From the IMG/VR virus record IMGVR_UViG_2541047932_000016: 38,453 nt of DNA; one strand, given 5' to 3'. The notes under the pieces are model-generated. The model searched no databases. It was not told the origin of the DNA and saw nothing but the letters and a program-made list of their open reading frames with translations. The position numbers and the translations under genes are program-made. How positions within the stretch are numbered: position 1 is the first letter of the stretch; each line of letters starts with the position of its first letter. Source of the stretch: a virus. Its lineage: Duplodnaviria > Heunggongvirae > Uroviricota > Caudoviricetes. This document shows positions 1,308-18,192 of the stretch, in pieces.

Positions 1308-2267
1308 TCAAAAATCAGCCTGACTCGGGAGCAGTTTTTGCCAGATGGCTGAAACGTATTTCGCCTGGTAACGTGCATCGTTCAGAGCGTTATGGCGTTC
1401 ACCTTCGAATGGAATAGTCGTTCTTGCGTCGAAATCCATCACCAGTCCCAGAGCAACCATCGTTCTTACATCGCGATCATTGGTGTAACGCCACGGGCAG
1501 GGGATCCCCTGCCGTTCATATGAACGGCGTAAAATCACGTTGTCGAAAGTTGCACCGTTACCCCAGACCTGAACAAAAAATTCACCGGAGTTTTCGTCGA
1601 TAAATTCCCGTAATTGCAGCAGTGCATCATCTAACGGGATTTCATCGGTAAGAATGGCGGATTGCGCTTCGCGTGACTGTTTCAGCCACCACTTAATGGT
1701 GTCCCGATCAATGACTCCGCCAGCAGTTTCCAGATCGATAGTTTTGCTGAATTCTGGCCCCATCTCTCCGGTTTGCGGATCGAAAAATATTGCACCTATT
1801 GAGATAATCGGGGCATCAGGATTTTTTCCCATGGTTTCAAGGTCGATCATCAGATGAATCCCCGCTCTGCTGGTGGATGTGAGATTATGATGACCGTTCG
1901 CCTTAATTAAGGGATCTGACGCCTCGCCAGTTTCACTATCGCTGGCATGATGCTGATTGCCGCCAGTGTTCTCCTTGTGCTGATGCGCAGTGCCTTCCAT
2001 TTCCTCCGGATCATTTTCCTGAACTTCAGGCTGATTCTCTTCATCGAATATTTCCTGGTATGTTGCGTCACTTATCACCGCACCACAATCAGGGCAGCTA
2101 CCGCCGCCGGTCTGACCGCAGGCGGTGCAGGCTTTTTCCGGCTCCTGTTTCGTTTCTGGCTCGTTTTGTTGCGCATTTGGGCTGTTTTGTTCCGTTTTCT
2201 GGTCGTTCTGTTCCGATTCTTGCTGGTTCTGGTTCACAGAATCGCAGGTTTCAATCCCTTCACCCAT
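1308..2267 (-). CDS. DEDD-type 3'-5' exonuclease (DnaQ-like, exodeoxyribonuclease VIII-like) with N-terminal Cys-rich zinc finger
   Basis: 319 aa; CTACGQTGGGSCPDCG Cys4 motif, then MIDLETMG...VWGNGATFDNVIL...HNALNDARYQAKY matching Exo I/II/III motifs of DEDDh exonucleases. Confidence 0.65.
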   Translation of the reverse strand: MGEGIETCDSVNQNQQESEQNDQKTEQNSPNAQQNEPETKQEPEKACTACGQTGGGSCPDCGAVISDATYQEIFDEENQPEVQENDPEEMEGTAHQHKENTGGNQHHASDSETGEASDPLIKANGHHNLTSTSRAGIHLMIDLETMGKNPDAPIISIGAIFFDPQTGEMGPEFSKTIDLETAGGVIDRDTIKWWLKQSREAQSAILTDEIPLDDALLQLREFIDENSGEFFVQVWGNGATFDNVILRRSYERQGIPCPWRYTNDRDVRTMVALGLVMDFDARTTIPFEGERHNALNDARYQAKYVSAIWQKLLPSQADF

Positions 2268-3757
2268 TTCGGATCATTCGGATCGCTAATCCCTTCAACA
2301 AATTCACCACGTGATGCAGCAAGCAATTTATCGGCGTCAGGCTGGCTGATATTGGCTGCCTGCATAATTTTGTTTACTTCGTCAGCGGTAACTTTTACCG
2401 GCTCCGGTTGTACGGAATCTTCAGCGGTATCCACATTTTGCGGTAAGTCCGTGTATGTTCCGTTTTTGCGGGCAAGATATTCTTCTTTCGTGATTTCAGT
2501 AGCCCCGGCAGCCAGCGCCTTGTCCAGACCAGAAAGTTTGTTTGCGCGACCGTATTTTTCGCCATCCTTGTCGGTGAAGAGGAAGTAGAACGGCCCCTCA
2601 CGCTCTACAGATGGTTCGACTTCCACTTTGCATTCGGTTTTTTCGTTGTCCGGAATTGCCGTTTCCACTGCATCAGTTTCTGGTACTGGCGACGAGAGAG
2701 TATCAGTTGCGCTCTGATTTCTTCCTTCATCTTCAAACACGCCCTTTGTAGTCAGGTATTCAGTAATGTATTTGTTCAGTGCCACAGGGTCTTTGTGAAT
2801 GTCGATCGGACGTTCACGGACAAGGCCAAAAATAGTCTGGCGGCTGTAGCGAAGCGCATCAGGTTGTTTGCGCATTGATGCGGAGATGCGCTTCCAGTCT
2901 TCGCGATCTCTGGCGATAACTTCATTTTTAGCCCAGCGAAGGATGCTGCCGTCAATGTTTCCGGCATCCGCATCACCAGGCCAGAGATAGTAGGCCAGCT
3001 CCCTGTCCAGGGTTTTCCATGTCTGCTTGTATTCGCGATGAATGGCGGCAGTTACAGGAGGGATTTTTTCTGCTGGGTTTTCAGTGTGCTGTCGGTTGGC
3101 TTTGGCGCGGGCAAGATCAACAACAGACGTGTATTTTCCAGTCTCTTTGCGCTCTGCGTCCTGCCGTTTTTTCCAGTTACGTAATTCAGCCTGAATTTCG
3201 GGCCATTTGGCACCCGGATTACATTTGTGTTTAACCCATCCGATAGCGAACAGTTTGCGTTCCGGATACATAGCGTTAATTTCAGGCGTTTTCATCAGTG
3301 CTTCAACGATATGCCCGTCAAAGGTAGCAACGTCTTCCTGCAGTAATTCCTGCGCGTCAATCGCCATATCAACGGTGATGTTTTCACATGTACCGAACTT
3401 AACCAGGACCGCGTTCTGTACTTCAAGGGACAGCTTGTCAAAATTGACGTTCATCGGATCGGATTCTGGTTCGACCGGAATAAAGGAAGCGGATTCCTCA
3501 TCCCAGCGGTTTTCCTGCATATATTCGGTATCCCAGGAGTCGATAGCAGGGCGGGGCATGCCGGGTTTATCTTCGCAGACAAGAAATTTATAAGCGCAGT
3601 CCTGAGCAGCCGGATAATGTTCCAGGAATTGCCAGTGAAATTTTGCGCGGGCGCGACGTTCATCACCGGCTTCAATGGCAGTGGCTACAGCAACTGCGCC
3701 CTCTTCTTTTATTGCCTGTTCGTCCGGAATGGCGGCGCAAATAAAGACTTTACTCAT
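2234..3757 (-). CDS. Hypothetical phage early protein (507 aa), acidic C-terminal half
   Basis: Long ORF with ATG at 3755-3757 and a GAGG-type RBS; co-oriented with the leftward early operon; no family recognised by eye. Confidence 0.6.
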   Translation of the reverse strand: MSKVFICAAIPDEQAIKEEGAVAVATAIEAGDERRARAKFHWQFLEHYPAAQDCAYKFLVCEDKPGMPRPAIDSWDTEYMQENRWDEESASFIPVEPESDPMNVNFDKLSLEVQNAVLVKFGTCENITVDMAIDAQELLQEDVATFDGHIVEALMKTPEINAMYPERKLFAIGWVKHKCNPGAKWPEIQAELRNWKKRQDAERKETGKYTSVVDLARAKANRQHTENPAEKIPPVTAAIHREYKQTWKTLDRELAYYLWPGDADAGNIDGSILRWAKNEVIARDREDWKRISASMRKQPDALRYSRQTIFGLVRERPIDIHKDPVALNKYITEYLTTKGVFEDEGRNQSATDTLSSPVPETDAVETAIPDNEKTECKVEVEPSVEREGPFYFLFTDKDGEKYGRANKLSGLDKALAAGATEITKEEYLARKNGTYTDLPQNVDTAEDSVQPEPVKVTADEVNKIMQAANISQPDADKLLAASRGEFVEGISDPNDPKWVKGLKPAIL

Positions 3758-3850
3758 TTTGTTTTAACCTCATTACAGATTTAAGGGTGAACAAATCCCT
3801 GCCATTGCTGGCATATAAAAATGAAACCGGATATTAATTACGGTGCTGTT

Positions 3851-4042
3851 TTAAAGTCCTGCCGGTATTTCGTTATTATTAGTGTGAGTAGTTTTATCTA
3901 CCGGATAACAGTTACCGGGAATTTTTTGTTCTGCTGCTGCAGCCATGCATTCTTTCATTGAACCGTATAAGCCAGTCACCAGCTCAAGAGATTCGCCGGA
4001 AACAAGATAAACTGTCAGAACGAGTGCAAATGTTGTATTCAT
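3851..4042 (-). CDS. Small membrane protein, YdfD-like (Qin prophage lysis protein family)
   Basis: 63 aa with N-terminal hydrophobic segment (MNTTFALVLTVYLVSG...); start overlaps dicB stop (ATGA); same size and position as ydfD downstream of dicB in Qin. Confidence 0.45.
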   Translation of the reverse strand: MNTTFALVLTVYLVSGESLELVTGLYGSMKECMAAAAEQKIPGNCYPVDKTTHTNNNEIPAGL

Positions 4043-4227
4043 TGTTTATATCCTTTTTGCAGCAGGTCCAGACGAGCCAGCATTGAAGGAATGCATACTT
4101 CATTTAACAGGTCCTGCTCGAGTTTTCTCTGCTTAATGGCGTCTTCAATAAATGTTTTGTCTCCAGTGATAACGCCAATTTCGAAACGAAGTTCAGACGT
4201 GCTGGCATTACATGATAACTTTTCCAT
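4039..4227 (-). CDS. dicB: Cell division inhibitor DicB
   Basis: 62-aa product MEKLSCNASTSELRFEIGVITGDKTFIEDAIKQRKLEQDLLNEVCIPSMLARLDLLQKGYKQ aligns along its length with E. coli DicB (...EIGV...EDAI.KRK.E..LLN..CI.SMLARL...KG..Q); start taken at the internal ATG 4225-4227, not the longer ORF. Confidence 0.85.
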   Translation of the reverse strand: MEKLSCNASTSELRFEIGVITGDKTFIEDAIKQRKLEQDLLNEVCIPSMLARLDLLQKGYKQ

Positions 4228-4403
4228 TATCGCGTCCTCAACAATGAATTTTGTGATGCGGTGCCTGGTGCCTCCAGGTGACGTTAACCAGTTAACAATT
4301 AACGCCGGATACAGAGAATCCACCCATAACACTGTTTTTGGTTTTAACTGTTCCGCGTGCGCTGAGCCGCATTCACCGCATCACAAAATTCACTTTTAAA
4401 AAA

Positions 4404-4456
4404 GGGCGGCAGAGCAGTCACGGAGTAAAACTGATACCGCCAAATGTCACCAGAAT
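4404..4456 (-). ncRNA. dicF: DicF small regulatory RNA (Hfq-dependent sRNA targeting ftsZ and other mRNAs)
   Basis: Minus-strand sequence ATTCTGGTGACATTTGGCGGTATCAGTTTTACTCCGTGACTGCTCTGCCGCCC is near-identical to the 53-nt E. coli DicF as I recall it, followed by a T-run; lies just upstream of dicB as in Qin. Confidence 0.78.
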
Positions 4457-4794
4457 ATTGATAACAGAGGGCGTTGTAGCGGGGTTGTCACTTAAGCGTA
4501 TGGTCAACCTGACAACCCGGTGTCCTCAACTGGGGAAGGAATAACCCCGCCATACTTACCGCCGCGCCATTTCGCGGATTGCCACAACCGGAAGCGCACG
4601 TTCGAAGAAATCTAACGACAAGCCTTCTAAGGGAAAGAGCTTCGCCGTACGCTTTCGCGTTATGCCCTGACTTTTCAGGGAAATATCCTTTCAGTAAACT
4701 GTCAGTACCGGATTCTTATCCGTGTCCGGCGCACGACCACACGTGACAGCGTGTTGGTCTCCATTTTTAACCCAGAACCTCAATGGAGGATAAA

Positions 4795-5004
4795 ATGCCA
4801 AACAAAAAAAGAAATCCGCTTATTGAAAAACAGATTGAATGCCTGGTAAATCAACTCAGGCAATCAGGGTTATTAAAAACTCATTCAGAGTTGAGGCTCA
4901 CAGAATCAGCATTCGACGATAAATTAAATAATGTCCTTTATAATGGCATTATTGATTTTAATCGTTCTGTTGGTCGCCGCGGCCCTGCTGGTGTTTCCTT
5001 ATAA
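4795..5004 (+). CDS. Hypothetical small protein (69 aa)
   Basis: ATG at 4795 preceded by GGAGG at 5-nt spacing; convergent with the 216-aa gene and abutting it stop-to-stop with zero gap; product MPNKKRNPLIEKQIECLVNQLRQSG... not recognised. Confidence 0.35.
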   Translation: MPNKKRNPLIEKQIECLVNQLRQSGLLKTHSELRLTESAFDDKLNNVLYNGIIDFNRSVGRRGPAGVSL

Positions 5005-5655
5005 TTACCAGTCAATCCAGAGTGGACCGTGTTCAGCGTAAATATAACTGTACACATCCAGATTATATTTGTGGTCTGTTAAGAACAGGCCGCAAATACA
5101 TGCCGAAGCTTCCAGTGCAGCGGCTCTGTTACTGAATAACCATGTAGCAACATTCCAGCGTTTTTCTGCATCCCAGTCTTTCTCAAGGCCTGATACCATG
5201 AAGAAACCGTTAGTGTTGCCATCAAATAATTCTGTTTCCAAATTTTTAAGCAATGCCTGATGGACTCTTGCCAGGTATTCCGCCGGAATTTCGCCACGAA
5301 TTCTAATGAGATTGTCATAAACAAACATGTTCCCCGCATATGGCGATTTTTCTTTCTTGTTTTTTAAACCAGCATCATGAGCAAACTGATCAATTTCTTC
5401 TTCCGTTGGTTTCGTATTGATGTTTTGCGCTGTCGTTTCTGCAATTTTATTTGCCATACTCTCTGAGTCGTGTTTATTTATAGACGCACAGAAATACAAT
5501 CCGGTAAACGCATCGCGCACATTACGAGCCATATTATCAGTGTCTTTTTTCGTTACCGATTCCAATTCAAGTTCGTTCAGACGATGACGAAGTGTGTGTG
5601 CTGCAATCTCCTGGATTGAAGGAGGTAAATCTTTAAATTCCATCGTCAATCTCAT
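5005..5655 (-). CDS. Hypothetical protein (216 aa), first large gene of the leftward early operon
   Basis: ORF with ATG at 5653-5655; no hydrophobic segments, no Arg-rich N-like motif; lies downstream of the putative PL/OL region. Confidence 0.65.
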   Translation of the reverse strand: MRLTMEFKDLPPSIQEIAAHTLRHRLNELELESVTKKDTDNMARNVRDAFTGLYFCASINKHDSESMANKIAETTAQNINTKPTEEEIDQFAHDAGLKNKKEKSPYAGNMFVYDNLIRIRGEIPAEYLARVHQALLKNLETELFDGNTNGFFMVSGLEKDWDAEKRWNVATWLFSNRAAALEASACICGLFLTDHKYNLDVYSYIYAEHGPLWIDW

Positions 5656-5807
5656 CAGTCAGAGTTTCTTGCTAACCAGCGACGCGCGCCAGCTTCCGTT
5701 TTAAACGTTTTGCTTCTGGTATACGTCATCGCGGTGAACGTGCCGTCCAGGTTGGGGAATACTCCGCATACCAGAGATTCGTTGTTGCCAAGATTGAGCA
5801 TATCCAT
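5655..5807 (-). CDS. Small ORF (50 aa), translationally coupled to the 216-aa gene
   Basis: ATG at 5805-5807 with GAGG RBS 5-6 nt upstream; product MDMLNLGNNESLVCGVFPNLDGTFTAMTYTRSKTFKTEAGARRWLARNSD; its TGA overlaps the downstream ATG (TGATG). Absent from the ORF track because it is under 60 aa. Confidence 0.4.
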   Translation of the reverse strand: MDMLNLGNNESLVCGVFPNLDGTFTAMTYTRSKTFKTEAGARRWLARNSD

Positions 5808-5984
5808 GTTGACCTCATTTACCCTTAACGCCGGGTCGCGGAACTAAAAACCTGCTGCGCTGTTATACAAAGTGTTCCCGCCGTCATGTTCATACGCCTC
5901 GGGCTGGCTACTTAACCCCTGGCCACTGCCGGGTAACTCGAGGTATTGCCCTGCATTCTGTGGGGTGGGTGGGTGATGAATAAA

Positions 5985-6036
5985 CAATAGCACTGCTATT
6001 TTATTGTGTAAATAGTAATGCTATTGTTTTTTTGGA
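5985..6036 (-). promoter_or_regulatory. Putative leftward early promoter with operators (PL/OL-like)
   Basis: Two copies of the 13-bp palindrome ATAGC-N3-GCTAT (5987-5999 ATAGCACTGCTAT; 6012-6024 ATAGTAATGCTAT) overlapping a minus-strand TTTACA-N17-TATTGT promoter-like element; the same palindrome recurs between the repressor and cro-like genes. Confidence 0.45.
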
Positions 6037-6039
6037 GGT

Positions 6040-6075
6040 AAGAAAAAAAACCACCCGAAGGTGGTTGTTGGTAGG
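6040..6075 (-). terminator. Rho-independent terminator downstream of the repressor-TA operon
   Basis: Minus strand reads ACCACCTTCGGGTGGT followed by a T-run, immediately after the parE2-like stop. Confidence 0.6.
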
Positions 6076-6080
6076 AATGA

Positions 6081-6371
6081 TTAACAGCTTTTGTTTGGAT
6101 ACTGCCTTCGTGAGTGAACTACATTTACGATCTCGATGTTAGATGCTGTTACTCGGTAAAGTATTATGTAGTTAGGATGGGTCACTATCTCACGAAGGCC
6201 TAGAGCTCTTTCGCTTGGTGGATACAGGTAAGGGTGTTCAGAAAGTGACAAAACTGATGTTTCAATGCGTATTTTTAGTCTACGTGCAGCGGGAGGGTTT
6301 TCCTTGGCAATATAGGCCACGATCTGACGCAAATCATCACGCGCAGAAGGTAGCCATAAAATGGGCAGCAT
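6081..6371 (-). CDS. parE2: ParE/RelE-family toxin (ParE2-like)
   Basis: 96 aa; MLPILWLPSARDDLRQIVAYIAKENPPAARRLKIRIETSV... is typical of ParE toxins; start overlaps the upstream antitoxin stop by 1 nt. Confidence 0.8.
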   Translation of the reverse strand: MLPILWLPSARDDLRQIVAYIAKENPPAARRLKIRIETSVLSLSEHPYLYPPSERALGLREIVTHPNYIILYRVTASNIEIVNVVHSRRQYPNKSC

Positions 6372-6562
6372 TACTCACTCCTGTTCGTCGAAGCTATTTG
6401 CGCAATAAGGTTTTCCATTTCAGCCATTACTTCGTCATGCGGAATTGCAGGACGGGGGTCTGCGAGGCTTGCTGCCACTTTGGTGCGTAACCATTCGTTA
6501 TAGCTGTTTTCTTGTTCGATTGTTTCAAATTCTGAAATTATCGGGGAAAGGACTGTACTCAT
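6371..6562 (-). CDS. paaA2: PaaA2-like antitoxin
   Basis: 63 aa; SEFETIEQENSYNEWLR.KVAASLADPRPAIPHDEV matches my recollection of E. coli O157 PaaA2; GGAGG RBS; directly upstream of the ParE-like toxin. Confidence 0.72.
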   Translation of the reverse strand: MSTVLSPIISEFETIEQENSYNEWLRTKVAASLADPRPAIPHDEVMAEMENLIAQIASTNRSE

Positions 6563-6579: not shown

Positions 6580-7080
6580 TTAGGCGCGACGACCTTTTTG
6601 CGCCTCTAGCCACCGCGCAACGGTTTCTTCAATTGATTCTTTTTTCTCCTTCATTTCCTTAAGCATTTTCTCTTTGTCTTCTTTTGGGAAAGCCCTGAAC
6701 GTCTGGATCAAATCTCGCTCTATAGGTTCTATATTAAACGGAAGTTCGTTTTCCGATTGCTCCATCTCTGCGGGTAAAGCGACAACATTATCCTGCTGCA
6801 GTTCTTGGGGGTACATCCTTACAATTCGTAACAAGTCTGCCATATCTGGTCTAATTGACTCAGGCGGAACTTGTAGCAACCCAGCGAACTTGATAACAGC
6901 CTCTAGATTTAAAGGTGTCTGACCATTTAGATAATGGCTTACTGCCCCTTGTGTCGAAAAACCCAGAATTTCTGCCGCACGCTCTTGGGTTAACCCAAGT
7001 TGAGTTTTTTTCGTCGTCCAGATTTCTTTCAGTCTCTGGGCGGCTTGCAGGTCGATCTCTGACAGGGGTTTTCTTTTCAT
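6580..7080 (-). CDS. Prophage repressor, HTH XRE family (CI-like, no S24 peptidase domain)
   Basis: 166 aa; HTH segment LGLTQERAAEILGFSTQGAVSHYLNG; divergent from a cro-like gene across an operator-bearing intergenic region; C-terminus is Lys/Glu-rich, not LexA-like. Confidence 0.8.
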   Translation of the reverse strand: MKRKPLSEIDLQAAQRLKEIWTTKKTQLGLTQERAAEILGFSTQGAVSHYLNGQTPLNLEAVIKFAGLLQVPPESIRPDMADLLRIVRMYPQELQQDNVVALPAEMEQSENELPFNIEPIERDLIQTFRAFPKEDKEKMLKEMKEKKESIEETVARWLEAQKGRRA

Positions 7081-7187
7081 ACCTTCAATTCTAATAAGAT
7101 TATTAATCTCTTTGAAATAGCGATGCTATTTACTTTCAAAAATAACAATGCTATTAATGCTCATGGTCACATAACATGAGGTGAACA
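7081..7187. promoter_or_regulatory. Divergent immunity promoter/operator region (OR/PR/PRM-like)
   Basis: 107-bp AT-rich intergenic region between divergent repressor and cro-like genes; contains palindromes AGATTATTAATCT (7097-7109) and ATAGCGATGCTAT (7117-7129). Confidence 0.55.
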
Positions 7188-7451
7188 ATGAATCTTGGAG
7201 AATATTTGCATCATTCCCGTATAACCCAGAAAGATTTTGCTGAAATTGTTGGGGTAACCCAAGGGATGGTAAGCCATGTTATTACTGGACGGGCGAAACT
7301 TACGGGGGGGAAAGTTTTACGCTGGTGTGAAGCAACAGGGTGGGTAGTGACCCCGCACGAGATTGATAGCAGTACTTACCCCAACCCAACCGATGGCATA
7401 CCTGTTGACTATCAGGCTAACACACAACCCGCGCTGGGAGTTGATTCATGA
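7188..7451 (+). CDS. Cro/YdaS-like HTH regulator
   Basis: 87 aa; HTH ITQKDFAEIVGVTQGMVSHVITG; GAGGTG RBS; first rightward gene opposite the repressor. Confidence 0.7.
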   Translation: MNLGEYLHHSRITQKDFAEIVGVTQGMVSHVITGRAKLTGGKVLRWCEATGWVVTPHEIDSSTYPNPTDGIPVDYQANTQPALGVDS

Positions 7452-7873
7452 AAATCAAGCATGAACACATCCGCATGGCGATGAATGCCTGGGCGCGTCC
7501 TGATGGCGAAAAAGTTCCAGCAGCTGGAATAACCCAGGCTTATTTTGAGTTGGGTATGACGTTCCCAGAACTGTATGACGACAGCCATCCGGAAGCCCTG
7601 GCTCGCAATACCCAGAAAATTTTCCGCTGGGTAAAGAAAGATACTCCTGATGCCGTTGAAAAAATGCAGGCTCTGTTACCAGCTATCGAAAAAGCAATGC
7701 CGCCTCTGCTGGTGGCCCGAATGCGCAGCCACAGTTCCGCTTATTTTCGGGAGTTGGTAGAGACGAAGGAACGGCTGGTGAAAGATATTGATGATTTCGT
7801 TGCATCAGCGATCGTTCTGTTCGATCAGATGAATCGTGGTGGCCCGGCAGGAAACACTCTGGCTGTGCATTAA
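7448..7873 (+). CDS. YdaT-like protein (Rac-type early protein)
   Basis: 141 aa; N-terminus MKIKHEHI... as I recall for YdaT-family proteins; overlaps the cro-like stop by 4 nt. Confidence 0.55.
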   Translation: MKIKHEHIRMAMNAWARPDGEKVPAAGITQAYFELGMTFPELYDDSHPEALARNTQKIFRWVKKDTPDAVEKMQALLPAIEKAMPPLLVARMRSHSSAYFRELVETKERLVKDIDDFVASAIVLFDQMNRGGPAGNTLAVH

Positions 7874-17453: not shown

Positions 17454-17529
17454 GGCCCTTTAGCTCAGTGGTGAGAGCGAGCGACTCATAATCGCCAGGT
17501 CGCTGGTTCAAATCCAGCAAGGGCCACCA
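17454..17529 (+). tRNA. tRNA with CAT anticodon (Ile2/Met type; ileX/ileZ-like)
   Basis: Hand-folded 76-nt cloverleaf: acceptor GGCCCTT/AAGGGCC, anticodon loop CTCATAA, T-loop TTCAAAT, 3' CCA. Confidence 0.8.
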
Positions 17530-17536
17530 TCACATA

Positions 17537-17613
17537 CCGCCATTAGCTCATCAGGAAAGAGCGCCAGCTTTCGAAGCTGGTTGCGCGGAGTTCGGGTCCC
17601 CGAAGGCGGTCCA
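17537..17613 (+). tRNA. tRNA-Arg-like (anticodon TCG by hand folding), possibly degenerate
   Basis: 77 nt: acceptor CCGCCAT/AAGGCGG (one A-A mismatch), anticodon loop TTTCGAA, T-stem with one mismatch, T-loop TTCGGGT (non-canonical G at position 58), CCA. Confidence 0.5.
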
Positions 17614-17626
17614 TTATCTGTATCCT

Positions 17627-17703
17627 GCGTTGTTAGCTCAGCCGGACAGAGCAATTGCCTTCTAAGCAATCGGTCACTGGTTCGAATCCAGTACAACGCG
17701 CCA
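17627..17703 (+). tRNA. tRNA-Arg (anticodon TCT)
   Basis: 77 nt: acceptor GCGTTGT/ACAACGC, anticodon stem ATTGC/GCAAT, loop CTTCTAA, T-loop TTCGAAT, discriminator G, CCA. Confidence 0.8.
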
Positions 17704-18192
17704 CACTTATTTTCCCTGGCTCGCTTTTGCGGGCCTTTTTTTTAAATGTCTCACAATTCAGGCGGTTGACTGTTGTCTGGTTTGCGGGGAGTTTGTTAAA
17801 AGAAACTGGCATGGTGAATCCCCCTGTGCGGAGGGGCAATCAGCGAGTAGGTATATGGGATAATCGCGGATTCAGGTGCTGGTACTGAATTCACCGGGAG
17901 GCACCCGGCACCATGCAATGGCACATAGCGCCACTCTCCAGCCCCTCTCCGGAGGGGCTTTCTTATGGACAAAAAAAGCCCGCGCAGGGAGACGCGGGCG
18001 GCAAGGAATAAACAACAAAACGTGAAGTAATATTTCAGCTGGCGAATAATATCCGACAGTAATCACTCTGCGCAATAGCGCGGCCTTTTTCGTATTGCGG
18101 GCTGTTGTCTCTCTTCTGCCATTGTCCTGTAACTTCCGGACTTCAGCCCGCTCCTCATTTTACTCACAATATTATCCCGGCCGGGAGGATTC

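What the first reader, a model, noticed from the sequence alone, without database searches (positions are those of the whole stretch)
5005..5807. Coupled 50-aa plus 216-aa gene pair at the lambda N/sieB position, immediately downstream of a putative PL-like promoter
The first translated genes of the leftward early transcript are a 50-aa ORF with a good RBS whose stop overlaps the start of a 216-aa ORF (TGATG). Neither has an Arg-rich N-like motif, membrane segments or any family I recognise. In lambdoid phages this slot holds N and superinfection-exclusion or defence morons (rexAB, sieB, ral), so a two-gene abortive-infection, exclusion or antitermination-substitute module is plausible. A third strong-RBS small gene (4795-5004) is convergent and abuts stop-to-stop. 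No recognisable N homolog exists elsewhere in the window.
Basis: partly seen in the sequence, partly recalled or inferred. Interest (0 to 1): 0.65.

Follow-up and report, generated by a model that had tools for sequence, protein, structure and literature searches.

The report
ydfA plus swappable early-operon cassette
The two genes are the first genes of the known dicBF early operon of an E. coli prophage (ydfA plus an uncharacterised modular protein in a swappable slot), and the larger gene's real partner appears to be the small gene facing it, a pairing whose function is still unknown.

Summary
The ORFs exist as described: 50 aa at 5655-5807(-), 216 aa at 5005-5655(-), TGATG overlap, downstream of a promoter flanked by the same operators as the repressor/cro region.

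They are not an unknown pair at an "N slot". The 50-aa protein is YdfA (Pfam DUF1391, 84% identical to K-12 YdfA). It is the first gene of a Qin-type dicBF operon: DicF, DicB and YdfD follow.

The 216-aa protein (212 aa as annotated by PGAP) fills the variable ydfB/ydfC slot. It has a ~50-aa helical N-module shared with many unrelated C-termini, a linker, and a ~115-aa alpha/beta C-domain with no convincing relative.

ydfA occurs without this gene, and this gene occurs without ydfA.

The C-domain does travel with the convergent 69-aa gene (4795-5004): 80 of 83 loci, including Salmonella versions with a different N-terminus at about 30% identity. Both genes are under purifying selection.

My best reading is a cognate protein pair with opposite expression phases, wired as an antisense "non-contiguous operon". 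That part is inference. There is no support for an N substitute or for any catalogued defence system. Function remains unknown; interest is moderate.

The parts
5984..6025 (-). Repressor-controlled early-left promoter, the dicBp / PL equivalent. The -35 TTTACA (6012-6007) and -10 TATTGT (5989-5984) are overlapped by two operator palindromes AATAGCAnnnCTATT at 5986-6000 and 6011-6025.
   Evidence: Promoter scan. Operator pattern also found at 7116-7130 and 7141-7155 in the repressor/cro intergenic region, with the same 25-bp spacing; 0 of 100 shuffles reach the observed count.
5808..5983 (-). 5' leader of about 170 nt, between the promoter and ydfA.
   Evidence: Highly conserved among loci whose promoters and operators differ. 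No significant fold (z = +0.7), no Rfam match, no boxA.
5655..5807 (-). ydfA homologue (DUF1391), 50 aa, first gene of the operon. GAGG Shine-Dalgarno at 5813-5816.
   Evidence: Pfam PF07151, E 1.6e-28, 98.5 bits against a cut-off of 27.3. 84% identical to K-12 YdfA over 49 aa by BLASTP. PGAP: 'DUF1391 family protein'.
5005..5655 (-). Modular accessory protein: 216 aa from the overlapping ATG, 212 aa from the ATG at 5643. Also called 'Ybl81' / phrog_2151.
   Evidence: phrog_2151, E 5e-147. 151 homologues, almost all from Escherichia or Salmonella. Only 49 representatives among 1.84 billion. dN/dS 0.26-0.52.
5485..5643 (-). N-module, aa 5-57: MEFKDLPxxIQEIAA...NVRDAFTGLY, predicted to be two helices.
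   Evidence: Shared with phrog_1363/9419/6937/33007. Shared with more than 30 proteins that have unrelated C-termini. Present in Stx phage PA2 gp25. Occurs as the C-terminal module of Salmonella MFNVKRNG proteins.
5008..5355 (-). C-domain, aa about 101-216: an alpha/beta sandwich (bb-a-bb-a-b) with a conserved FDGxxNG loop.
4795..5004 (+). Convergent 69-aa gene ('s69'): basic, probably helical (inferred from the sequence, not modelled), with conserved tail GRRGPAGVxL. GGAGG Shine-Dalgarno at 4785-4789. Its stop codon abuts the stop of the 216-aa gene.
   Evidence: phrog_4274, E 1e-51. PGAP CDS. Present next to the C-domain in 80 of 83 loci, including three distant Salmonella contexts at 41-52% identity. 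dN/dS 0.07-0.38. pI 9.7.
4404..4455 (-). DicF sRNA with its terminator, downstream in the same operon.
   Evidence: Rfam RF00039, 77 bits against a gathering score of 48.
4039..4227 (-). dicB, cell-division inhibitor, 62 aa.
   Evidence: Pfam PF05358, E 3.6e-38, on aa 36-97 of the longer ORF. PGAP dicB.
3851..4042 (-). ydfD homologue (DUF1482).
   Evidence: Pfam PF07358, E 2.8e-19. The K-12 ydfD product is annotated 'lysis protein'.

Best explanation
SHOWN. The region is the promoter-proximal part of a dicBF-type early-left operon of a Qin/Rac-like lambdoid E. coli prophage. The order is: repressor-controlled promoter, conserved leader, ydfA (DUF1391), a variable slot, DicF, dicB, ydfD, then a recE-like gene.

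The 216/212-aa ORF occupies the slot that holds ydfB and ydfC in K-12. It has three parts: a ~50-aa helical N-module found on many unrelated proteins, an acidic linker, and a ~115-aa alpha/beta C-domain.

The ydfA-to-N-module junction (stop/start overlap, plus a second ATG behind a GAGG) is conserved in E. coli, so the two genes are probably translationally coupled. They are nevertheless separable in evolution.

The unit that is inherited together is the C-domain plus the convergent 69-aa gene.

INFERRED (about 0.3 on its own). The acidic 216-aa protein and the basic 69-aa protein form a cognate antagonist pair with opposite expression phases. The 69-aa protein would be made from its own weak promoter while the early promoter is repressed in the lysogen. 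The 216-aa protein would be made when the early promoter fires on induction or infection. One would bind and neutralise the other.

Because the two genes meet stop-to-stop with no terminator between them, firing of the strong early promoter would also silence the small gene by head-on transcription. This is the logic of the Tha/Ith non-contiguous operon.

Which partner is the effector and which the inhibitor is not decided by the data. The architecture (shared N-module, swappable C-terminus, small adjacent cognate gene) leans toward the large protein being the effector and the small one its safety catch.

The pair is not an N-type antiterminator.
For: Operon identity:
- DUF1391, DicB and DUF1482 by Pfam; DicF by Rfam.
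- Gene order matches K-12 Qin.
- Literature states that ydfA is the first gene of the dicBp transcript repressed by DicA (10.1101/2023.04.14.536235; PMC5069750).
- Shared operators at the promoter and at the repressor/cro region.

Variable slot:
- Among 80 ydfA loci, at least 6 alternative contents follow ydfA.
- 53 carry the N-module fused to 216-, 137-, 128-, 126-, 123- or 105-aa variants. All but one pair of loci (a single substitution) share the junction TGATGAGGTTGACGATGG.

Modularity.

C-domain and s69 linkage:
- 80 of 83 loci.
- The linkage holds in E. coli with ydfA adjacent, in E. coli with 141-400 nt inserted, in Salmonella with the N-module but no ydfA, and in Salmonella with a different N-domain, with or without HTH, at about 30% / 41-52% identity.
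- Both genes are under purifying selection.

Other slot variants also have their own convergent ORF overlapping the 3' end: 137 aa with 105 aa, 126 aa with 104 aa, and Salmonella P0212 with 96 aa.

Charges are complementary: -8.9 against +3.6.

Precedent for antisense-wired cognate pairs in prophages: Tha/Ith (PMC11087260). Self-immunity precedents: BstA/aba (PMC8585504, abstract; named as a parallel in PMC11087260) and RemI (PMC13043305).
Against: - No interaction, expression or phenotype data exist for any of the three proteins.
- No convincing sigma-70 promoter was found upstream of the 69-aa gene. The only consensus match overlaps its start codon.
- The 69-aa gene is truncated in 8 loci and internally deleted in 2 more, while the large gene stays intact. 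It is therefore dispensable at least in repressed prophages.
- Many of the 83 loci are near-identical, so the number of independent observations of linkage is small: about 4 contexts.
- Adjacent or overlapping genes are co-inherited by linkage alone.
- There are no hits in PADLOC, Pfam, NCBIfam or PDB.
Confidence: 0.45

Rival explanations
1. Linkage only. The 216-aa protein is a stand-alone early accessory protein (host take-over or anti-defence, like other non-essential PL-operon genes). The 69-aa gene is an independent reverse-oriented moron. They travel together only because they abut or overlap and lie between the same recombination boundaries.
For: - The slot is a mosaic hot spot with conserved flanks: the N-module on one side, and on the other the MEDKM/GGAGG start region and the conserved block upstream of DicF.
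- Other slot types hold only a reverse gene, with no N-module gene: a 148-aa hydrophobic protein (probably membrane; judged from the sequence only), or a 185-249-aa Zn-ribbon protein.
- N-module proteins exist without any convergent gene, for example PA2 gp25.
- s69 decays while the large gene stays intact.
Against: - The association survives replacement of the whole N-terminal half and of the genomic context in Salmonella, at about 30% identity. This is long after linkage to the E. coli flanks was lost.
- The stop-to-stop or overlapping geometry is preserved in every context.
Confidence: 0.3
2. One reading: ydfA and the 216-aa gene together form a two-gene abortive-infection or superinfection-exclusion module.
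For: - Tight translational coupling, conserved in E. coli.
- Prophage immunity regions often carry defence genes (PMC12724215; PMC13043305).
- DicB, in the same operon, excludes some phages (PMC6832061; title and abstract).
Against: - Both genes sit behind the repressor-controlled lytic promoter, so they should be off in the lysogen.
- ydfA occurs without the gene, and the gene occurs without ydfA.
- No PADLOC hit.
- No membrane segment or enzymatic motif.
Confidence: 0.1
3. A regulatory module. The C-domain is a partner- or ligand-binding domain of a regulator, and the small protein is its modulator (antirepressor-like, in the manner of TF-smORF modules). The module would tune the lysis-lysogeny decision or read-through into DicF/dicB.
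For: - In Salmonella the same C-domain is fused behind an HTH_3 DNA-binding domain.
- The location is next to the immunity switch.
- TF-smORF precedent: PMC10432266.
Against: - The E. coli protein has no recognisable DNA-binding domain.
- TF-smORF pairs are divergent, not convergent.
- The structural matches are weak.
Confidence: 0.1
4. YdfA, alone or with the conserved leader, replaces lambda N as the antitermination factor that lets the early-left transcript pass the DicF terminator.
For: - YdfA holds the first-gene position after the PL-like promoter.
- No N homologue was seen among the nine ORFs flanking the promoter that were scanned; the rest of the window was not scanned for one.
- The leader is conserved across immunity types.
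- The DicF terminator must be read through for dicB and recE to be expressed (PMC5069750).
Against: - No Arg-rich motif.
- No boxA.
- The leader has no significant structure and no Rfam match.
- No similarity to any solved protein.
- This is purely a positional argument.
Confidence: 0.05

Closest known systems
dicBF operon of the E. coli K-12 Qin cryptic prophage (ydfA-ydfB-ydfC-dicF-dicB-ydfD-ydfE, promoter dicBp repressed by DicA)
   Same: - Same order and orientation: repressor, promoter with operators, ydfA first, then DicF, dicB and ydfD.
- YdfA is 84% identical.
- In K-12 too, ydfA is followed after a 1-nt gap by the next ORF.
   Different: - ydfB and ydfC are replaced by the 216-aa modular gene plus a convergent 69-aa gene, with no BLASTP similarity.
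- A ParE/PaaA2 toxin-antitoxin pair and a terminator sit between the repressor and the promoter.
- The repressor/operator specificity differs.
Tha/Ith non-contiguous (antisense) operon of Staphylococcus aureus prophages (PMC11087260)
   Same: - A small gene with its own start signals lies antisense inside a phage operon.
- The proposed logic is the same: mutually exclusive expression in lysogeny and lysis, with a cognate protein pair.
   Different: - No sequence or fold relationship.
- Here the operon that contains the antisense gene is the lytic early operon, not the cI operon.
- Neither partner has a HEPN or any other recognisable effector domain.
- Expression and inhibition are untested.
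Polymorphic toxin / immunity cassettes (conserved N-terminal part, swappable C-terminal domain, adjacent small cognate gene)
   Same: - A conserved N-module is fused to many unrelated C-termini.
- At least three C-terminal types each have their own adjacent small ORF.
- The partner co-varies with the C-domain.
   Different: - No secretion or trafficking domain.
- The partner is convergent rather than co-directional.
- No known toxin fold.
- Toxicity is not shown.
Lambda PL-operon accessory genes (N, ral, sieB, kil, ea genes)
   Same: Position downstream of the repressor-controlled leftward promoter. The N-module family also occurs among delayed-early genes of Stx phages.
   Different: No homology to N, Ral, SieB or Kil. 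No nut elements.

Membership tests
YdfA / DUF1391 (Pfam PF07151) | Sequence match above the Pfam gathering score over the whole ~48-residue model | tested here: met
   98.5 bits against a cut-off of 27.3; model positions 2-48 of 48. 84% identity to K-12 YdfA over 49 aa.
YdfA / DUF1391 (Pfam PF07151) | First gene after the DicA-type repressor-controlled promoter, upstream of DicF and dicB | tested here: met
dicBF operon (Qin type) | DicF sRNA, then dicB and ydfD, downstream on the same strand | tested here: met
   Rfam 77 bits. Pfam DicB E 3.6e-38 and DUF1482 E 2.8e-19.
dicBF operon (Qin type) | ydfB and ydfC between ydfA and DicF | tested here: not met
   BLASTP of K-12 YdfB and YdfC against all ORFs of the region gave no hit in the window. 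The slot holds other genes.
dicBF operon (Qin type) | One polycistronic transcript from the repressed promoter | not testable with these tools
   Shown for K-12 only. Here only the promoter and operator sequences are seen.
Lambda N-type antiterminator | N-terminal arginine-rich motif and Pfam/PHROG N family match | tested here: not met
   No Pfam or PHROG N hit. At most 3 Arg in any 15 residues.
Lambda N-type antiterminator | nut site (boxA plus a boxB hairpin) in the leader | tested here: not met
   No boxA-like match between 5808 and 5983. Leader fold is not better than shuffles.
Catalogued anti-phage defence systems (PADLOC-DB 2.0) | Profile match of any component | tested here: not met
   No families for the three proteins at E <= 1. 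Only noise-level hits (E 0.018-0.049, 11-12 bits) for the other slot genes.
Type II toxin-antitoxin | Co-directional bicistron, with a recognisable toxin or antitoxin family | tested here: not met
   The large gene and s69 are convergent. There are no Pfam, NCBIfam or PDB family hits.
Non-contiguous antisense operon with a cognate pair (Tha/Ith-like logic) | A gene encoded antisense inside an operon, with overlapping or abutting transcripts and no terminator between | tested here: met
   The stops abut at 5004/5005. No terminator-like site was found there. The genes overlap by 11-53 nt in Salmonella.
Non-contiguous antisense operon with a cognate pair (Tha/Ith-like logic) | Own promoter for the antisense gene | tested here: inconclusive
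   Strong Shine-Dalgarno (GGAGG), but no convincing sigma-70 consensus upstream.
Non-contiguous antisense operon with a cognate pair (Tha/Ith-like logic) | Mutually exclusive expression, and protein-protein inhibition | not testable with these tools
   Needs RNA-seq and interaction assays.
Polymorphic effector/immunity architecture | Conserved N-terminal module with many unrelated C-terminal domains | tested here: met
Polymorphic effector/immunity architecture | A cognate small neighbour that changes with the C-terminal domain | tested here: met
   216 aa with 69 aa, 137 aa with 105 aa, 126 aa with 104 aa. The C-domain/s69 pairing is kept across genera.
Polymorphic effector/immunity architecture | Toxic activity of the C-terminal domain, neutralised by the neighbour | not testable with these tools
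   No recognisable toxin fold.

The most novel reading that the evidence does not exclude
The ydfA-to-DicF interval of dicBF-type operons, and its Salmonella counterpart, would be a hot spot for a previously undescribed class of combinatorial cassettes. Each cassette would be an early-operon protein built from shuffled small modules, whose variable C-terminal domain is matched to a small protein encoded antisense at its 3' end. Together they would form effector/immunity (or defence/anti-defence) pairs whose activity is switched by the lysis-lysogeny state through head-on transcription.
Probability: 0.25. Interest if true: 0.7.

Novelty: new variant of a known kind. Interest (0 to 1): 0.45.

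Why it matters
The dicBF operon is present in most E. coli genomes. Part of the 3800-6100 query, which spans the ydfD homologue, dicB, DicF, the slot genes, ydfA and the promoter region, matched 4740 of 5426 complete genomes. The operon is studied for DicF and DicB, but its promoter-proximal genes are still listed as 'function unknown' (PMC5069750, PMC11430063).

This work shows that the ydfB/ydfC position is a swappable slot. One common cassette, found in 600 of 5426 genomes including O157, O145 and O26 STEC, consists of a modular early protein and a cognate antisense small gene. That gives a concrete, testable handle on what these genes do.

If the pair is an effector/immunity or defence/self-immunity switch, it would extend the 'non-contiguous operon' principle from staphylococcal phages to enterobacterial lambdoid prophages. 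It would also add a new small-protein family to prophage biology.

If the association is only linkage, the finding is ordinary prophage mosaicism.

Tried and rejected
- Homology searches for the 216-aa protein found nothing informative: Pfam, NCBIfam, PADLOC and PDB sequence search. An exhaustive profile search of 1.84 billion representatives gave only 49 hits, all within the same modular family.
- PDB profile searches with the 69-aa family, the N-module and YdfA found nothing.
- I considered whether YdfA is a shortened homologue of the Salmonella MFNVKRNG domain, which would make ydfA + N-module a split gene. hhalign gave a probability of 4.7%, so this is unsupported. The idea came from a 19-codon remnant of that domain sitting exactly where ydfA sits in E. 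coli.
- I considered whether the N-module or the MFNVKRNG domain is a ribbon-helix-helix. There is no Pfam support even at E <= 10.
- I considered RemAIN (RemN is also 220 aa, in a Gifsy immunity region). RemN is a HEPN nuclease, and by inspection the 216-aa protein has no Rx4-6H motif. Rejected.
- Leader as put-like or nut-like RNA: no Rfam match, fold z = +0.7, no boxA.
- A scan of GTDB species representatives for the C-domain found nothing.
- No sequenced phage in INPHARED carries the cassette; only the N-module is found there.
- No literature was found for 'Ybl81', and none on DUF1391 function.
Full report
OBSERVATION

A 50-aa ORF lies at 5655..5807(-) and a 216-aa ORF at 5005..5655(-). 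On the coding strand the junction reads CTGACTGATGAGATTGACGATGG, so the TGA stop and the ATG share one base. The 50-aa ORF has a GAGG 5 nt before its ATG.

A third ORF, 4795..5004(+), converges on the 216-aa ORF, and the two TAA stops are adjacent.

A sigma-70-like promoter, TTTACA-17-TATTGT, lies at 6012..5984(-). Two palindromes AATAGCAnnnCTATT overlap it, at 5986-6000 and 6011-6025. The same palindrome with the same 25-bp spacing occurs at 7116-7130 and 7141-7155, between the HTH repressor gene (6580..7080, -) and the cro-like gene (7188..7451, +). None of 100 shuffles reaches the observed count. The 'PL-like promoter' is therefore well supported at the sequence level.

There is one correction. 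A second in-frame ATG at 5643 is the start used by PGAP, by the PHROG profile and by nearly all database homologues, giving 212 aa. In the other loci surveyed it is preceded by GAGG at the right distance; the window and two other loci (L005, L049) have GAGA. Either start leaves the genes tightly coupled.

WHAT THE REGION IS

The 50-aa protein is a full-length member of Pfam DUF1391 (98.5 bits against a cut-off of 27.3). It is 84% identical to YdfA of the K-12 Qin prophage.

Downstream on the same strand lie:
- DicF sRNA at 4404-4455 (Rfam 77 bits)
- dicB at 4039..4227
- a DUF1482/ydfD homologue at 3851..4042
- a recE-like gene

This is the dicBF operon. In K-12 it is ydfA-ydfB-ydfC-dicF-dicB-ydfD-ydfE, transcribed from dicBp and repressed by DicA, with ydfA as first gene of the polycistronic RNA (PMC5069750; 10.1101/2023.04.14.536235). 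The literature states that ydfABC have no known function (PMC11430063).

Upstream, between the repressor and the promoter, the window also carries a PaaA2/ParE toxin-antitoxin pair and an intrinsic terminator.

Part of the 3800-6100 query matches 4740 of 5426 complete E. coli genomes, but only 267 genomes match it over at least 80% of its length. The stretch holding the 69-aa gene and the C-domain occurs in 600 genomes, up to four copies each, including O157:H7, O145 and O26 strains. Everywhere it is annotated 'hypothetical protein' or 'Ybl81'.

ANATOMY OF THE 216-AA PROTEIN

It matches phrog_2151 end to end. Its first ~75 residues also match four other PHROGs.

A word-indexed search found 151 homologues, almost all from Escherichia or Salmonella, at 65-99% identity. 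An exhaustive profile search of 1.84 billion cluster representatives found only 49 proteins. Most of these share only the first ~50 residues (MEFKDLPxxIQEIAA...NVRDAFTGLY, two predicted helices) and then diverge into unrelated C-termini.

The C-terminal ~115 residues recur in only two other representatives. Both are Salmonella proteins with a different N-terminal domain (MFNVKRNG...), with or without an HTH_3 domain, at 28-32% identity.

The modules shuffle further. The E. coli N-module is 40-46% identical to the C-terminal module of other Salmonella MFNVKRNG proteins. It also heads a 147-aa delayed-early protein of Stx2 phages such as PA2.

The protein has no hit in Pfam, NCBIfam, PADLOC or PDB. 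It has no membrane segment and no Arg-rich motif, and it is acidic (pI 5.3).

WHICH GENES BELONG TOGETHER

I surveyed 80 IMG/VR loci that encode YdfA at 88-100% identity.

- In 53 of them the next ORF carries the N-module, in all but one pair of loci (a single substitution) behind the same junction TGATGAGGTTGACGATGG. Its length is 216, 137, 128, 126, 123 or 105 aa, according to the C-terminus.
- In the other 27 (5 of which end at a contig edge just after ydfA), and in K-12 Qin (L002), the N-module gene is absent. The interval then holds ydfB/ydfC (K-12 type), a reverse-strand 148-aa hydrophobic protein (probably membrane; judged from the sequence only), a reverse-strand 185-249-aa Zn-ribbon coiled-coil protein, or almost nothing.

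Conversely, the Salmonella orthologue of the 216-aa protein (P0105, 70% identity) is not preceded by ydfA. ydfA and the 216-aa gene are therefore coupled by synteny in E. coli but are separable.

The convergent 69-aa gene behaves differently. Among the ydfA loci it occurs only with the 216-aa type.

In a second survey of loci encoding the C-domain, 80 of 83 loci with sequence downstream carry a homologue of the 69-aa gene. It is always convergent, and always abuts or overlaps the 3' end. This holds in four contexts:
- E. coli with ydfA adjacent
- E. coli with 141-400 nt inserted after ydfA
- Salmonella with the N-module but no ydfA
- Salmonella with the MFNVKRNG domain, with or without HTH, next to an int/repressor/Cox switch

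In the last context the C-domain has diverged to about 30% identity and the small protein to 41-52%. The small protein still keeps its SGLLK core and its ...PAGVxL tail.

Both genes evolve under purifying selection: dN/dS 0.07-0.38 and 0.26-0.52.

Two other E. coli slot variants, and one Salmonella variant, also have their own, different convergent ORF overlapping the 3' end of the variable C-terminus.

There are exceptions. The small gene is truncated to 37 codons in 8 near-identical loci. It is reduced to a start-plus-tail remnant in 2, and absent beside a truncated C-domain in 1.

MECHANISM

The following is shown: operon identity, the repressor-controlled promoter, modular architecture, the variable slot, co-inheritance of the C-domain with the 69-aa gene, and coding constraint on both.

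The following is inferred. The acidic early protein and the basic 69-aa protein (pI 9.7) are a cognate binding pair expressed in opposite phases. The small gene would be expressed while the early promoter is repressed, and the large one when it fires. With no terminator between the abutting stops, early transcription would run head-on through the small gene.

This is the logic shown experimentally for Tha/Ith in staphylococcal prophages (PMC11087260). It fits the broader theme of prophage-encoded functions with cognate self-immunity: BstA/aba (PMC8585504) and RemI in RemAIN (PMC13043305).

The combination of a shared N-module, a swappable C-terminus and a small adjacent cognate gene also resembles polymorphic effector/immunity cassettes. 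That slightly favours the large protein as effector and the small one as a safety catch in the lysogen. The data do not decide the direction.

The weak points are these:
- No convincing promoter for the small gene.
- Few truly independent observations of the linkage.
- Adjacent genes are co-inherited anyway.
- The small gene is dispensable in some prophages.

I put about 0.9 on the identity and anatomy, and about 0.3 on the cognate-pair mechanism.

RIVALS

- Linkage only (0.3). This is the main alternative.
It is weakened by the genes' separability, by their position behind the lytic promoter, and by the absence of any defence-family hit.
- A regulatory module (0.1). It is suggested by the HTH fusion in Salmonella and the weak ACT/ArgR-C-like fold matches.
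- An N-substitute role for YdfA or the leader (0.05). It rests on position alone. There is no Arg-rich motif, no boxA, no significant leader structure and no Rfam match.

COMPARISON WITH KNOWN SYSTEMS, AND NOVELTY

The 50-aa gene is an ordinary member of a catalogued family of unknown function. The operon is a known one.

The 216-aa and 69-aa proteins belong to narrow, uncharacterised enterobacterial prophage families. No paper in the searchable library mentions them.

Three points I did not find described in the papers read or in the term searches run:
- the ydfB/ydfC position is a swappable slot
- its early-strand gene is assembled from shuffled modules
- the C-domain has a conserved antisense partner

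I classify this as a new variant of a known kind: a prophage accessory cassette in an immunity-proximal hot spot, with non-contiguous-operon geometry. Interest is moderate (0.45). There is a testable handle on long-unexplained genes of a well-studied operon, but no function yet.

Noticed in passing
window 6049-6562: A PaaA2-family antitoxin (6371..6562, -) and a ParE toxin (6081..6371, -) lie directly downstream of the repressor gene on the same strand. An intrinsic terminator follows at 6066..6049. The toxin-antitoxin pair is therefore probably co-transcribed with the repressor in the lysogen, just upstream of the early-left promoter.
   Followed up: partly
window 5808-5983; L007, L016 and L039 about 3330-3500: The ~170-nt leader between the early-left promoter and ydfA is nearly identical in prophages whose promoters and operators differ. 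It shows no significant RNA fold, no Rfam match and no boxA. What constrains it is unexplained.
   Followed up: partly
window 4708-4729, and the equivalent positions in L021, L016, L083, L086, L087 and L089: A conserved block, CCGGATTCTTATCCGTGTCCGG, containing a CGGAT-TCTT-ATCCG hairpin. It lies 60-90 nt upstream of the convergent small gene in both E. coli and Salmonella, inside the long untranslated region 5' of DicF. It could belong to DicF processing or to control of the antisense gene.
   Followed up: no
L007 3752-4198(-); L008 3767-4324(-); L016 4026-4343(-); L021 3957-4271(-): Other contents of the ydfA-to-DicF slot: a reverse-strand 148-aa protein with hydrophobic stretches (probably membrane; judged from the sequence only), a 185-249-aa coiled-coil protein with a CxxC...CxxC ribbon, and 105-aa and 104-aa convergent ORFs paired with the 137-aa and 126-aa N-module variants. 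The 104-aa ORF shares the MEDKM/GGAGG start region with the 69-aa gene. None gives a significant PADLOC hit, and the two reverse-strand proteins scanned against Pfam give none either.
   Followed up: partly
L083 4934-5003: In Salmonella, a 19-codon remnant of the MFNVKRNG domain ORF (MFNVKRNDFSVEIVGYINE*) ends in ATGA, which overlaps an in-frame M-S-L-T-MEFKDLP start. This mirrors the ydfA/MRLT-MEFKDLP junction of E. coli. It suggests that the split and fused forms of these modular genes interconvert.
   Followed up: partly
window 17454-17970: Three tRNA genes (17454-17526, 17537-17610, 17627-17700) followed by an STnc100 sRNA match (17780-17970, 138 bits), from the Rfam scan.
   Followed up: no
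window 2234-3757: The recE-like ORF (507 aa) covers only positions 1-503 of the 823-position exonuclease profile phrog_2082. The corresponding gene in a 99.5%-identical prophage is 816 aa. The window copy may be truncated or frameshifted.
   Followed up: no
window 7448-7873: The gene in the cII position after the cro-like gene is annotated 'toxin YdaT family protein' in the near-identical RefSeq prophage. This places the immunity region in the Rac/Qin class rather than the lambda class.
   Followed up: no
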